Positions 32,667 to 52,025 of a stretch of 64,000 nt of DNA are shown here, one piece after another. Where the stretch lies: contig CP068257.2 of the NCBI GenBank assembly GCA_009914755.4, positions 35,040,001 through 35,104,000 of the forward strand, written 5' to 3'. This DNA is from the human T2T-CHM13v2.0 reference genome, Homo sapiens. The notes beneath the pieces were generated by a model, which searched no databases, was not told the DNA's origin, and saw only the letters and a list, made by a program, of their open reading frames with translations. Position 1 is the first letter of the stretch, and each line of letters begins with the position of its first letter. Made by a program: the position numbers and the translations under genes.

Positions 32667-35600
32667 GAATGATTGCTCTTGGGAATTTCACCACTAAGAT
32701 GCCAAAAAACCATGGCACATCAGCTGGCCTATAATGAGGTGGGTCTACGTTCCAGTGAATTTATTCCATCTTTCAGACTATATCACGTGGAATTTTCTTA
32801 TAGTCTTTCTCCCCCTTTAAAACAATCCTAAGGTTATTAAAGATACTCCTTTCAGTACTGCCTTCCCCACCCCTTGGGCTACACTATTCAGCTGTTTTTT
32901 AAAGAACAGAATTGTAACTTGCATTATCAATAGAGAACATTCCTGGAGAAAACACAGATGTTTTCTGGCTCGTGTCACACAGGCGGTTCTGAAATCTACG
33001 AAGTTATATGAGGACTTCCTGGCACCGTGAGAGGAAGGTTGGGAGGCAGTATTACTCAGCCAGACCAAAATGATTTTATTTATTCCACATGCCTAAAAAT
33101 ATGTTTGAACATAATGTGCCATAATTTTTCTGGTGATTTCTATGAATCAGTTTTTAATTATGAATAATGTTTTTAGAGATACTCCTGAGAAATTGTACCC
33201 AAGTTTCCCTTGACAGCCATCACATAAAGTATCTAAAATGAAGCAGCTTCCACGGCTAACACAGAAAATCAAAGCATGAATTTCTAAAAGATCCATTAGT
33301 CATCTTTGCTGAGAACAAGAGTCTCACGATTCGCACATGCAAAGGGTGGCTGAGAAATTCAGGTCAACAAACATAACTAGAAAAAGACGGTTACTGTCAA
33401 ATAATTGTTCAAAGGAGTTTTGTACAAATATAAATTTTGTAACTTCACTTGGAGCCTTTTTTCTTTTCTTCTAGTTAGGAATTTTCTCTGTGTTTGAATT
33501 ATTGCCTTTCTAATCCTCAGCTGACGTTTTGCAGCTTTTAAGGGATCGCTGTGGCTACAGCAGGAAACGTTCCTGCTCCATGGCCCAACGCAGGCCACTC
33601 AGAAATTAAAATGTTTGTGCAAGATAATGAGTATGAATTTCCATTTCTGGGATTTACTTTTAGAAAATCCAGCTACTGAAACTCAATCAAGGAGGGTCCA
33701 AGTGACACCCTGTCAAAGAACAGATGGGTGGGGTCAGCTCTGGAATTCAAGTACTTTTCGCAGGTGTATCTCTCCTGGAAACCACTTTCCTGCATTTGTC
33801 AGAGCTCACAGCTTCTGCGAAAATGTCGGCTAGGGATCAGGCTAAACAGAAGTACAAATAACTCAAGTAGCTTTCAGTGGAGCACCCTTAATGTTGCTTA
33901 AACAGGGAGGTATTTTCTGGTCAATTACCTTAAGTAGACTCCAGTAAACGCGAAAATTATTTTTGCATGAGTAACAACAGCGCTTATCTTTTTCCTTCCC
34001 CGGCTCCCAACTATCCAGGAATAAAGCAAATTCACACAGGAGTATTCCAGGACTCACAACCTTGTTTAGATTGTTTAAAAGGAATTGGAGGCTGTGGCTT
34101 TCCATCCAGTGTCGAGAGCTCCCGAGCAAGTTGAACGTGGCGCCGGCTGCTTAGCCAGAGGAAGCCAGCGTCTACCTGTGTCACTGAACGGCGCTCCTCC
34201 CACGGCGACACCTCCGTGCTCTTTTTGCTTGTATTTATTCAAAAATTAGATTTGTCAATAACGCAGGGCCTGGCAAATAGGAGGACCTCTCCAAAATTAA
34301 ATGCAAGATTGAACATAGGTCTCTCACATCATAATAAAGCGGTTTAATTTGGCTTCCACCGGGGGAGCGGAATAGCACTTGCCCAGCCCCTTTGAGCCCT
34401 GCGCACACTCGCACCACCGCCGCCTCTCCCACAAAGAGAAAAGCCACGAGAAGGGTCCCGACTGTGCAAATCTGTGTGCCCTCCCGAGGAAGGCGCCCGA
34501 GGGCTCACTCTGCCTGGTTCAAAAGCTTGTGGGAGAGAAGCACCCAAAAGAATTCCGTTGTCAGGTTAAAGTCTTTGTCTATACTCGCAGGATGGGAAGG
34601 ACGATGGTGCAATCACCGAGATTATTTTGTTTTCGTCCTCTAAAAAATGAAGAGGGGACTGGAGTCGGGACCAAAATTATTGGCAGACCGCACGGTTTGC
34701 AGTCACCCTGAAGTTACCAGCAGCCGATGCTGTGTCCAGGGAAAATATTCTTGAGCTGGAAAACGTGCTAATTTAAAGTCTTTCGTTTCACACGAAAATG
34801 TGCTGCACTCTTTGACTGCTCAGGAATTTGCTCTAGCACCTAGAAGGAATTCTGGCTTAGGGCAGGGGCGAGGGACAGTGGAGGGCGTTGGACCTTCTTC
34901 CGCAATCGGGACCACTCCAGGTCTCCCCGGAGAAGGCTGAGTCTCCAGCGCGTGGATTCAGATCAGGACTCTGTCTAAGTAGGCGAGAGCTGGGGATACC
35001 GCTGGGGGCTTTGGCGAAGCTAAGAAAGCACTGGCTTCTTATTCTCACCAGACATCTCAACACCCACGTGCGCTGGGTCCCGCAGTCTCTCGCCCGCCCC
35101 ACGCGGGTCCGAGCCCTGGTCCTTACTCCCCGCGCGGGAAGAATCTGGGGAGGGTGGGGGCGGAGAGGCGGCTGATCGGAGAGTGGGAGGGAGGATGGGA
35201 GATGGGCAGAGGCTGCCCGCATCAGGGCCAGGACAGACGTCCGCGCGGCCCCAGGCACTCACTTGAGTGTCACGCAAGTCACCCCAACACCGCACAAGAC
35301 AGTGGCGGGGTGCGCACCGAGGCCCCTACCTGGGGGGTGTGCGCGCACTGAACGACCCCTTCTCCAGGTGCGCGAGCCGCTCCGGCGGCCGTGCACACTG
35401 CGCCCCCTTCCGCCCACCTGCCTGGCCTGCGTTTCTAACCACGCGGGCGGTCCCGAGACTTCGCGCAAAAGGCAGGACCGCGACTCCCAATAATGATATC
35501 TTCGAAATAACCCCCTGCTGAGCCGGCGCCCAGGGCCGGGGGTAGAGTCCCGAGTCCCTTTTGCGGAATTAAGGAGACCTCTGGCGACCGGGGAGCCTGC

Positions 35601-51468: not shown

Positions 51469-52025
51469 GTAGAGCGGCCGCGCCGGGGGAGGAGGGCAGC
51501 CGCCGCAGGCTCCCTTCCCACCCCGCCACCCCAGCCTCCAGGCGTCCCTTCCCCAGGAGCGCCAGGCAGATCCAGAGGCTGCCGGGGGCTGGGGATGGGG
51601 TGGTCCCCACTGCGGAGGGATGGACGCTTAGCATGTCGGATGCGGCCTGCGGCCAACCCTACCCTAACCCTACGTCTGCCCCCACACCCCGCCGAAGGCC
51701 CCAGGACTCCCCAGGCCACCTGAGACCTACGCCAGGGGCGCCTCCCGAGCGTGGTCAAGTGCTTTCCAATCTCACTTCCCTCAGCAGGTTCCACCCAGCG
51801 CTTGCTCTGTGCCAGGCGCCAGGGCTGGAGCAGCAGAAATGATTGGGCTGCTCTGAGCTCTGAAGCATTCGGCCGCTGTGTGTGTGCAAGGGGCGCAAGG
51901 ACGGAGAGACAGCATCAATAATACAATATTAACAGGAGCACTTGTCCAGAGCTTACTGCAAGCCACATTCAGTTCCGGACCTTATTGACTTCCCCCTCCC
52001 ATCTAGAGTGGATTCTGGTTTTTCA

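What the first reader, a model, noticed from the sequence alone, without database searches (positions are those of the whole stretch)
34090..52000. ~18-kb CpG-rich, completely transposon-free domain around the SIM2 promoter
Upstream of 34 kb, Alus occur every 1-2 kb; I count about 30 copies in 34 kb. The interval ~34.1-52.0 kb is strongly enriched in CpG and G+C. It contains not a single Alu, L1 or LTR, and Alus resume at 52026. Multi-kb unmethylated CpG-island clusters with transposon exclusion are known at Polycomb-regulated developmental transcription-factor genes, for example the HOX clusters, and SIM2 belongs to that class. This is the dominant large-scale structure of the window.
Basis: partly seen in the sequence, partly recalled or inferred. 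Interest (0 to 1): 0.5.

Follow-up and report, generated by a model that had tools for sequence, protein, structure and literature searches.

The report
SIM2 promoter CpG-island cluster, repeat-poor
This is the already-described ~19-kb unmethylated, Polycomb-marked CpG-island cluster around the start of the human SIM2 gene; it is real and free of Alu/L1/LTR elements, but it is patchy, holds ancient MIR relics, and is an ordinary example of a known class.

Summary
Window 34090-52000 has G+C 0.60 and CpG o/e 0.63, against 0.45/0.24 upstream and 0.43/0.36 downstream. No Alu, L1 ORF or THE1-type LTR is detectable between 32653 and 52027. The gene is SIM2 (ATG at 41934, + strand).

Corrections:
- There are 24 Alus upstream, not about 30.
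- The interval is seven CpG islands separated by three CpG-poor gaps.
- Two of those gaps show the full CpG-decay signature of methylated DNA, and each carries a MIR (ancient SINE) relic. "Completely transposon-free" is therefore false in the strict sense.
- By composition the domain runs 33971-53197, so it contains the Alu at 52060 and a third MIR.

Papers report a ~20-kb low-methylation region over the SIM2 5' CpG islands, H3K27me3/bivalent status, mouse Sim2 among methylation-valley genes, and this 18 kb as the longest region on chr21 called unique by both of two uniqueness measures.

Extra results here:
- A crane orthologue has a ~16-kb domain in the same position, with no alignable non-coding sequence inside it.
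- Human and squirrel share 29% of CpGs in the islands against 2% in the flank, at equal overall identity.
- Scarcity of L1-endonuclease target sites explains about half of the Alu deficit.

Verdict: already known, low interest.

The parts
33971..53197 (.). Whole CpG-rich domain by composition (19.2 kb), from the first to the last Gardiner-Garden/Frommer island
   Evidence: The extent agrees with the published myoblast DMRs at TSS -7.5 kb to +12 kb if the TSS lies about 0.5 kb upstream of the ATG (the mapping is my inference).
32654..52026 (.). Interval with no Alu, L1 or THE1-type LTR (19.4 kb), bounded by the Alu at 32353-32653 (+) and the tail of the Alu at 52027-52329 (-)
34869..36195 (.). 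CpG island 1 by Takai-Jones criteria (G+C 0.64, o/e 0.80), about -6 to -7 kb from the ATG
36223..37961 (.). CpG-poor gap 1 (o/e 0.46, TpG/CpA o/e 1.04), partly decayed
37964..40234 (.). CpG island 2 (G+C 0.62, o/e 0.70)
40360..42356 (.). CpG island 3, the promoter, 5'UTR and exon-1 island (G+C 0.71, o/e 0.81) and the densest part of the domain
41934..42108 (+). SIM2 exon 1 coding part (ATG to GT donor), encoding the bHLH domain
42407..42764 (+). Polypyrimidine (TTTC)n/(CCTT)n tract in intron 1
42787..43950 (.). CpG island 4 (G+C 0.67, o/e 0.72)
44395..46465 (.). CpG-poor gap 2 (o/e 0.21, TpG/CpA o/e 1.24, the same decay signature as the methylated flanks)
   Evidence: The gap is shared with squirrel and absent in crane.
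45524..45610 (+). MIR (ancient SINE) core relic inside gap 2
   Evidence: nhmmer E=1.6e-5; z=10.4. It partly aligns to squirrel, so it predates the primate-rodent split.
46524..47637 (.). CpG island 5 (G+C 0.63, o/e 0.69)
47938..49389 (.). CpG-poor gap 3 (o/e 0.38, TpG/CpA o/e 1.23)
47982..48042 (-). Probable second MIR core relic inside gap 3
   Evidence: E=0.007; z=8.4
49422..50643 (.). CpG island 6 (G+C 0.64, o/e 0.70)
50770..51597 (.). CpG island 7 (G+C 0.65, o/e 0.77), containing exon 2
51386..51468 (+). SIM2 exon 2
52027..52329 (-). First Alu after the gap, with its (TTTG)n tail. It lies inside the 3' margin of the CpG-rich domain.
52330..52468 (-). MIR element abutting that Alu
   Evidence: E=7e-16; z=36.6
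52514..53197 (.). Last, weak CpG island (G+C 0.54, o/e 0.65), forming the 3' edge of the domain

Best explanation
The interval is the CpG-island cluster at the 5' end of SIM2. It is a large, constitutively hypomethylated 'DNA methylation valley' of about 19 kb, running from about -8 kb to +11 kb of the ATG and covering the promoter, exon 1, intron 1 and exon 2. It carries Polycomb H3K27me3 or bivalent chromatin wherever SIM2 is silent.

CpG richness (inferred from the sequence and supported by published methylomes). The DNA has been kept unmethylated in the germ line, so CpGs have not decayed to TpG/CpA. What is preserved is this epigenetic state, not the primary sequence.

Lack of Alu, L1 and LTR (the cause is inferred). 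There are two parts. About half is explained by scarcity of the A/T-rich L1-endonuclease target sites. The rest is most plausibly selection against insertions, which attract DNA methylation and would break up the unmethylated Polycomb domain.

Exceptions. Two blocks of intron 1 escaped this protection in the mammalian lineage. They decayed like methylated DNA, and they are the only places where ancient SINE (MIR) relics survive.
For: Shown here:
1. Composition. In the island segments CpG o/e is 0.64-0.78 and TpG/CpA o/e is 0.93-1.02, so there is no deamination footprint. In the flanks the values are 0.23-0.31 and 1.19-1.23.
2. CpG retention. In human-squirrel alignments 124 of 433 CpGs (29%) are shared in the islands, against 1 of 46 (2%) in the upstream flank and 3 of 50 (6%) in the gaps. 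Overall identity is the same in all three (76%, 77%, 75%). CpGs are spared specifically, which is what hypomethylation predicts and general constraint does not.
3. Crane. The Grus japonensis SIM2 locus has a sharply bounded domain from -5.5 to +10.75 kb (G+C 0.58, o/e 0.86; flanks 0.29 and 0.16). Only exons 1 and 2 align to human inside it.
4. Repeats. No Alu, L1 or THE1 is found in 19.4 kb. In squirrel, the lineage-specific ID SINEs lie only in the part orthologous to the flank.
5. Target sites. TTAAAA-type sites are 2-3 times rarer inside the domain. This lowers the expected number of Alus from about 12 to 4.3-7.6. Observed counts of 0 or 1 give P=0.0005-0.07.
6. MIR relics inside the Alu-free interval occur only in the two fully decayed gaps.

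From papers: a ~20-kb low-methylation region with H3K27me3-type repressed chromatin at SIM2 (PMC12160609); Sim2 among mouse methylation-valley genes, and Polycomb/TET maintenance of valleys with low deamination rates (PMC5806489); SIM2 in a bivalent-gene catalogue; SIM2 as an EZH2 target.
Against: - No methylation or chromatin data can be read from the sequence, so the epigenetic state rests on the literature.
- After correcting for target-site density, and using the domain defined independently by CpG content, the Alu deficit at this one locus is only marginal (P=0.011-0.07). Selection against insertion is therefore not demonstrated here.
- 43% of 200-bp windows are below o/e 0.6.
- Two gaps have decayed fully, so the 'valley' has not been uniformly unmethylated in the germ line over evolutionary time.
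- A teleost (piranha) orthologue shows only a ~2-kb CpG-rich patch, so the compositional domain is not pan-vertebrate.
- The repeat screen used few consensus sequences.
Confidence: 0.85

Rival explanations
1. Insertion bias alone. The domain lacks Alu and L1 only because its 60-75% G+C leaves few TTTT/AA L1-endonuclease target sites (and perhaps because Polycomb-compacted chromatin is less accessible). No selection acts against insertions.
For: Target sites are 2-3 times rarer inside the domain: 0.64-0.72 TTAAAA/TTTTAA per kb against about 2.0. The expected Alu count falls to 4.3-7.6. With the CpG-defined domain, 1 observed against 4.3-6.5 expected gives only P=0.011-0.07.
Against: A residual deficit of about 5-fold or more remains in every version of the test. 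Fixed older Alus are, from general knowledge, enriched rather than depleted in G+C-rich DNA. An independent SINE family in squirrel also stays outside the domain. Genome-wide, transposon-free regions and H3K27me3 domains coincide far beyond chance.
Confidence: 0.25
2. Dense regulatory sequence. The region excludes transposons because it is packed with conserved non-coding regulatory elements whose spacing cannot be disturbed. This is the classical explanation for transposon-free regions.
For: PMC12160609 describes enhancer activity in upstream fragments, an occupied MYOD site in intron 1 and an oesophagus super-enhancer spanning TSS -11/+21 kb. PMC5806489 calls methylation valleys hotspots of transcription-factor binding. 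Intron 1 is nearly the same length in human (9277 bp) and crane (9204 bp).
Against: Inside the domain only the two exons align between human and crane. All alignable non-coding elements lie outside it (53792-60471, and a weak one at 33137-33367), and that outside region does tolerate an Alu and a MADE1 element. Human-squirrel identity is no higher in the islands (76%) than in the flank (77%).
Confidence: 0.2
3. Chance or artefact. The Alu-free stretch is a random gap, and the CpG richness is ordinary promoter composition.
For: There is only one locus, and the boundaries of the interval were chosen after seeing the Alus.
Against: P=0.0017 for a gap this long with 27 uniformly placed Alus. A 19-kb run of seven islands is far larger than an ordinary promoter island. 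The same domain is present in a bird. It has been reported independently in two papers.
Confidence: 0.02

Closest known systems
DNA methylation valleys / canyons (large hypomethylated domains at developmental transcription-factor genes; Xie 2013, Jeong 2014 from my own knowledge; PMC5806489 read here)
   Same: The domain is about 19 kb, well above the 5-kb minimum. It is centred on a developmental bHLH-PAS transcription-factor gene and consists of clustered CpG islands. It shows low CpG decay and is conserved in position in a bird. Published low methylation and H3K27me3 match it, and Sim2 is in the mouse valley lists.
   Different: Nothing essential differs. Two blocks inside it carry the sequence signature of long-term germ-line methylation, so over evolutionary time it has behaved as three or four sub-valleys rather than one.
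Transposon-free regions (Simons et al. 2006) and 'transposon exclusion zones' under H3K27me3 domains (Bernstein et al. 2006, as cited in PMC4820842 and PMC3465993)
   Same: It is a stretch of more than 10 kb without recognisable Alu, L1 or LTR at a developmental regulator. It is mostly non-coding and not highly conserved in sequence. PMC11925158 picked it out as the longest overlap of two uniqueness measures on chr21.
   Different: It is not strictly transposon-free, because it holds MIR relics at 45.5 and 48.0 kb. The longest run with no detected element is 32654-45523 (12.9 kb).
Hyperconserved CpG domains underlying Polycomb-binding sites (Tanay et al. 2007; known to me, paper not held)
   Same: CpGs are retained between species far better than in the flanks: 29% against 2% shared between human and squirrel.
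   Different: Non-CpG sequence conservation is not elevated here (76% against 77%). I could not check whether SIM2 is among the 190 published domains.
HOX-cluster repeat-poor Polycomb domains
   Same: The same combination of a CpG-island cluster, H3K27me3 and SINE/LINE depletion.
   Different: This is a single gene with about 19 kb, not a gene cluster of about 100 kb.

Membership tests
CpG island (Gardiner-Garden & Frommer; Takai & Jones) | At least 200 bp with G+C >=0.5 and o/e >=0.6, or at least 500 bp with G+C >=0.55 and o/e >=0.65 | tested here: met
   Seven Takai-Jones islands of 0.8-2.3 kb cover 55% of 34090-52000, and Gardiner-Garden/Frommer islands cover 70%. The whole interval taken as one piece just passes the looser rule (0.60/0.63) but is not homogeneous.
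DNA methylation valley / canyon | A contiguous region of at least 5 kb (canyon: at least 3.5 kb) with very low CpG methylation across cell types | not testable with these tools
   There are no methylation data in the sequence. Literature: a ~20-kb low-methylation region at the SIM2 5' end (PMC12160609), and Sim2 in mouse valley tables.
DNA methylation valley / canyon | Low evolutionary deamination (CpG decay) relative to the surroundings | tested here: met
   TpG/CpA o/e is 0.93-1.02 in the islands against 1.19-1.23 in the flanks. CpG sharing with squirrel is 29% against 2%. The feature is not met in gaps 2 and 3.
DNA methylation valley / canyon | Positional conservation across vertebrates at a developmental transcription-factor gene | tested here: met
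   Crane has the domain from -5.5 to +10.75 kb, and squirrel shows the same patchwork. It is not visible by composition in piranha or handfish.
Polycomb / bivalent domain | H3K27me3 with PRC2 (and PRC1) occupancy, plus H3K4me3 in ES cells | not testable with these tools
   Literature only.
Transposon-free region (Simons 2006) | At least 10 kb (or at least 5 kb) with no RepeatMasker-annotated transposon of any class | tested here: inconclusive
   No RepeatMasker was available. With my limited library, 32654-45523 (12.9 kb) has no hit, but the full 18-19 kb fails because of the MIR relics at 45524-45610 and 47982-48042.
Transposon-free region (Simons 2006) | The orthologous region is also transposon-poor in a lineage with different active transposons | tested here: inconclusive
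   Squirrel has three ID SINEs and one MIR in about 4.4 kb of flank-orthologous sequence, and none in about 13 kb of sequenced domain. The assembly there has gaps and an inverted block.
SIM2 gene | Encodes the SIM2 bHLH-PAS N-terminus with canonical splice sites | tested here: met

The most novel reading that the evidence does not exclude
The extent of the domain (about 16-19 kb) and the length of intron 1 (9.2-9.3 kb) are almost identical in human and a bird, although nothing but the two exons aligns inside. All alignable non-coding elements sit just outside. The size and borders of the unmethylated Polycomb domain might therefore be under selection, or self-propagating, independently of primary sequence. 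The two MIR-bearing, CpG-decayed blocks would then be mammal-specific breaches where a SINE insertion seeded local methylation. This locus could serve as a clean natural test of whether transposon insertion erodes methylation valleys.
Probability: 0.12. Interest if true: 0.35.

Novelty: already known. Interest (0 to 1): 0.12.

Why it matters
It matters little as a discovery. This locus has already been described both as a ~20-kb low-methylation CpG-island region (PMC12160609) and as the longest stretch of chromosome 21 called unique by two uniqueness measures (PMC11925158). The class it belongs to (methylation valleys, transposon-free Polycomb targets) has been textbook material since 2006-2014.

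It is still a tidy illustration of three points. CpG retention, rather than sequence constraint, is what is conserved. Composition-driven insertion bias accounts for roughly half of the apparent 'exclusion'. The only surviving SINE relics sit where the domain has decayed.

SIM2 hypermethylation is used as a cancer marker, so exact island and gap coordinates have some practical value.

Tried and rejected
- Rfam scan of the whole window at gathering thresholds: no hit.
- Search for a target-site duplication around the A21 run at 45128-45148, to test whether it is a retroposon tail: none found, and there is no recognisable element body upstream.
- Test of whether the Alu at 52060 split a MIR that continues to its left: no (z=2.8).
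- Pfam scan of the ten longest ORFs in the domain, looking for transposon proteins or a hidden gene: nothing. They are the spurious ORFs expected in G+C-rich DNA.
- Exact CTCF-consensus scan for boundary elements: no match anywhere, so it is uninformative.
- L2-3', L1-3'UTR, MER5A and Tigger1 consensus sequences recalled from memory: no hit anywhere in the window. For L2 in particular this may reflect poor recall rather than true absence.
- Handfish orthologue: CpG o/e is high everywhere, so it is uninformative.
- Orangutan locus: not on record.
- Simons 2006 and Tanay 2007 are not held in the library, so I could not check whether SIM2 is in their lists.
- Squirrel locus: usable only in part, because of 12 kb of N and an apparently inverted block.
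Full report

Yes, in its main points.

It holds 1019 of the window's 1614 CpGs in 28% of its length. Upstream is 0.446/0.235 and downstream 0.426/0.36. GpC o/e is about 1 everywhere, so the effect is specific to CpG.
The figures are 0.6% upstream and 13% downstream.
- Formal island calling gives seven Takai-Jones islands: 34869-36195, 37964-40234, 40360-42356, 42787-43950, 46524-47637, 49422-50643 and 50770-51597.
- Three CpG-poor gaps separate them: 36223-37961, 44395-46465 and 47938-49389.
- A last weak island lies at 52514-53197, so by composition the domain is 33971-53197.

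**2. Repeats**

- blastn and nhmmer with an Alu consensus agree on 27 Alu copies or fragments.
- tblastn with L1 ORF1/ORF2 finds relics only at 24751-24888 and 28767-28928. THE1B-like LTRs lie at 16350-16727 and 23832-24214, and a MADE1 element at 56259-56336. None falls in the interval.
- A self-comparison shows no repeat family shared between the interval and the rest of the window, apart from a TTTC simple repeat.
- The interval is nevertheless not transposon-free. While reading 44300-46500 I recognised a MIR core.
  - nhmmer gives 45524-45610 (+) at E=1.6e-5, and a local alignment scores 23 against 10.0±1.2 for shuffles (z=10.4).
  - A second relic at 47982-48042 (-) has E=0.007 and z=8.4.
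- A third, clear MIR (52330-52468, E=7e-16) abuts the Alu inside the 3' margin of the domain.
These are relics older than the primate-rodent split, however (the 45.5-kb copy partly aligns to squirrel), not young insertions.
- Caveat: the consensus sequences were recalled from memory and are few. Hits validate themselves, but misses do not prove absence.

**3. Is the Alu gap more than chance?**

- Naively, yes. A 19,407-bp gap with 27 uniformly placed Alus has P=0.0017. At flank density the Poisson probability of no Alu is 6e-7 to 8e-6.
- Composition matters, though. L1-endonuclease target motifs (TTAAAA/TTTTAA and relaxed forms) are 2-3 times rarer in the domain. The expected Alu count therefore drops from about 12 to 4.3-7.6.
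- For the Alu-defined interval (0 observed), P=0.0005-0.0045. That interval was chosen after seeing the Alus.
- For the independently CpG-defined domain (1 observed), P=0.011-0.07.
- Roughly half of the 'exclusion' is thus insertion-site bias. The remainder is suggestive at this single locus, and as a class effect it rests on genome-wide literature.

**4. What the locus is**

- Four collinear exons with canonical GT-AG borders splice to a 152-aa peptide. The coding parts are 41934-42108, 51386-51468, 54752-54841 and 62038-62146 on the + strand.
- The peptide carries bHLH and PAS Pfam domains and is 99% identical to 'SIM2 isoform 4 [Pongo abelii]'. My initial identification used a SIM2 sequence recalled from memory. 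make it independent of that.
- The domain therefore spans about -8 kb to +11 kb around the ATG: upstream region, promoter, exon 1, all of intron 1, exon 2 and about 1.7 kb of intron 2.

**5. Mechanism: tests I could run on sequence**

(a) Deamination footprint.
- Island segments have TpG/CpA o/e 0.93-1.02, while the flanks have 1.19-1.23.
- Gaps 2 and 3 look exactly like the flanks (CpG o/e 0.21 and 0.38; TpG/CpA 1.24 and 1.23). Gap 1 is intermediate.
- The islands have therefore escaped methylation-driven decay, and two blocks of intron 1 have not. Those two blocks are where the MIR relics within the Alu-free interval lie.

(b) Cross-species CpG retention.
- In human-squirrel alignments 29% of CpGs (124/433) are shared in the islands, 6% in the gaps and 2% (1/46) in the upstream flank.
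- Overall identity is the same in all three (76%, 75%, 77%).
- This is the signature of protection from methylation, not of general purifying selection.

(c) Deep conservation.
- The SIM2 locus of the crane Grus japonensis (L002) has a sharply bounded domain from -5.5 to +10.75 kb of the ATG (G+C 0.58, o/e 0.86; flanks 0.29 and 0.16).
- This is almost the human extent. Intron 1 is 9204 bp in the crane and 9277 bp in human.
- Inside the domain only exons 1 and 2 (plus about 115 bp of adjoining intron) align, even with sensitive settings.
- The alignable non-coding elements lie outside it, at 53792-53952, 54344-54446, 55208-55431, 58889-59089 and 60285-60471, with a weak one at 33137-33367.
- That argues against 'dense conserved elements' as the reason for repeat exclusion. 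The element-rich introns 2-3 do tolerate an Alu and a MADE1.

(d) Other species.
- Squirrel shows the same islands and gaps. Its lineage-specific ID SINEs lie only in the flank-orthologous part, but the assembly is gapped and partly inverted there.
- A piranha orthologue has only a ~2-kb CpG-rich patch, and a handfish locus is CpG-rich throughout. The compositional domain is therefore an amniote feature in this small sample.

**6. Comparison with what is known**

- PMC12160609 (2025) shows methylomes and chromatin states for this very region.
  - It reports a 5.6-kb island unmethylated in all samples and repressed (H3K27me3) chromatin over the flanking islands.
  - Myoblast-specific hypermethylated regions lie at TSS -0.6/-7.5 kb and +4.5/+12 kb.
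  - The one DMR that does not overlap an island lies at TSS +2.5/+3.8 kb, next to an antisense lncRNA promoter. An oesophagus super-enhancer spans TSS -11/+21 kb.
  - If the TSS lies about 0.5 kb upstream of the ATG (my inference), -7.5 kb and +12 kb coincide with my compositional borders of 33971 and 53197. The non-island DMR would then overlap the 5' part of gap 2 and the sequence just upstream of it.
- PMC11925158 (2025) found that the longest overlap between regions of human chromosome 21 called unique by mappability and by sequence complexity is 18 kb at 36.7 Mb, and that it intersects SIM2.
- Sim2 occurs 21 times in the mouse methylation-valley gene tables of PMC5806489. That paper also shows that valleys are conserved in vertebrates, have low deamination rates and depend on Polycomb/TET.
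- SIM2 appears in the gene lists of a human ES-cell bivalent-region catalogue and as an EZH2 target.
- The association of H3K27me3 regions with 'transposon exclusion zones', and of transposon-free regions with CpG islands and developmental genes, is established (Simons 2006, Bernstein 2006 and Tanay 2007 from my own knowledge, papers not held).

**7. Verdict**

- The corrections are these:
  - the interval is not 'completely' transposon-free;
  - it is not homogeneous;
  - there are 24 Alus upstream rather than about 30;
  - the CpG domain ends about 1.2 kb beyond the point where Alus resume.
- The feature is an ordinary, already published member of a well-known class.
- The modest additions here are:
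  - CpG-specific rather than sequence-level conservation;
  - the near-identical extent of the domain in a bird;
  - the co-location of MIR relics with decayed blocks;
  - the estimate that target-site scarcity explains about half of the Alu deficit.
- Interest is low.

Noticed in passing
window 42407-42764: A polypyrimidine (TTTC)n/(CCTT)n tract of about 350 bp in SIM2 intron 1, 300 bp after exon 1. It causes the strong AT skew of 42-44 kb. A similar tract lies on the opposite strand at 3325-3476. It could form triplex (H-DNA) structures.
   Followed up: no
window 45128-45148: A perfect A21 run in CpG-poor gap 2, with no target-site duplication and no recognisable retroposon body upstream. 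The squirrel alignment resumes exactly at its 3' end (45144).
   Followed up: partly
window 53792-53952, 54344-54446, 55208-55431, 58889-59089, 60285-60471; weak 33137-33367: Non-coding elements alignable between human and crane (70-83% identity; the weak element about 65%). All lie outside the CpG-rich domain, in introns 2-3 or just upstream of its 5' border. They are likely enhancers.
   Followed up: partly
window 42109-51385; L002 10178-19381: SIM2 intron 1 is almost the same length in human (9277 bp) and crane (9204 bp), although the two do not align. It is about 4.5 kb in piranha (L004) and about 0.9 kb in handfish (L003).
   Followed up: no
L001 1-9080 and 20776-28774: In the squirrel assembly (GCA_016881025.1) there are 9 kb of N upstream of the SIM2 ATG. 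The orthologue of human 37543-28112 is placed downstream of exon 2 in inverted orientation. This is probably a scaffolding error in the G+C-rich region.
   Followed up: partly
L004 (piranha) and L003 (handfish): The teleost orthologues show no bounded large CpG-rich domain. Piranha has only about 2 kb around exon 1, and handfish is CpG-rich throughout 21 kb. This fits the known weak compositional signature of non-methylated islands in cold-blooded vertebrates.
   Followed up: partly
window 11001-12000: One kilobase with G+C 0.59 but CpG o/e only 0.21. It contains no Alu and no tandem repeat. It is a G+C-rich, fully CpG-decayed block of unknown nature.
   Followed up: partly
window 56259-56336: A MADE1 palindromic MITE (86-91% to consensus) in intron 3. 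It gave no Rfam hit at gathering threshold.
   Followed up: no
window 16350-16727 (-), 23832-24214 (+), 30240-30292: THE1B-like MaLR LTRs (74-78% identity to the consensus) in the Alu-rich upstream region, in opposite orientations. L1 ORF2 relics lie at 24751-24888 and 28767-28928.
   Followed up: no
window 38967-38995: A (GT)14 microsatellite inside CpG island 2.
   Followed up: no
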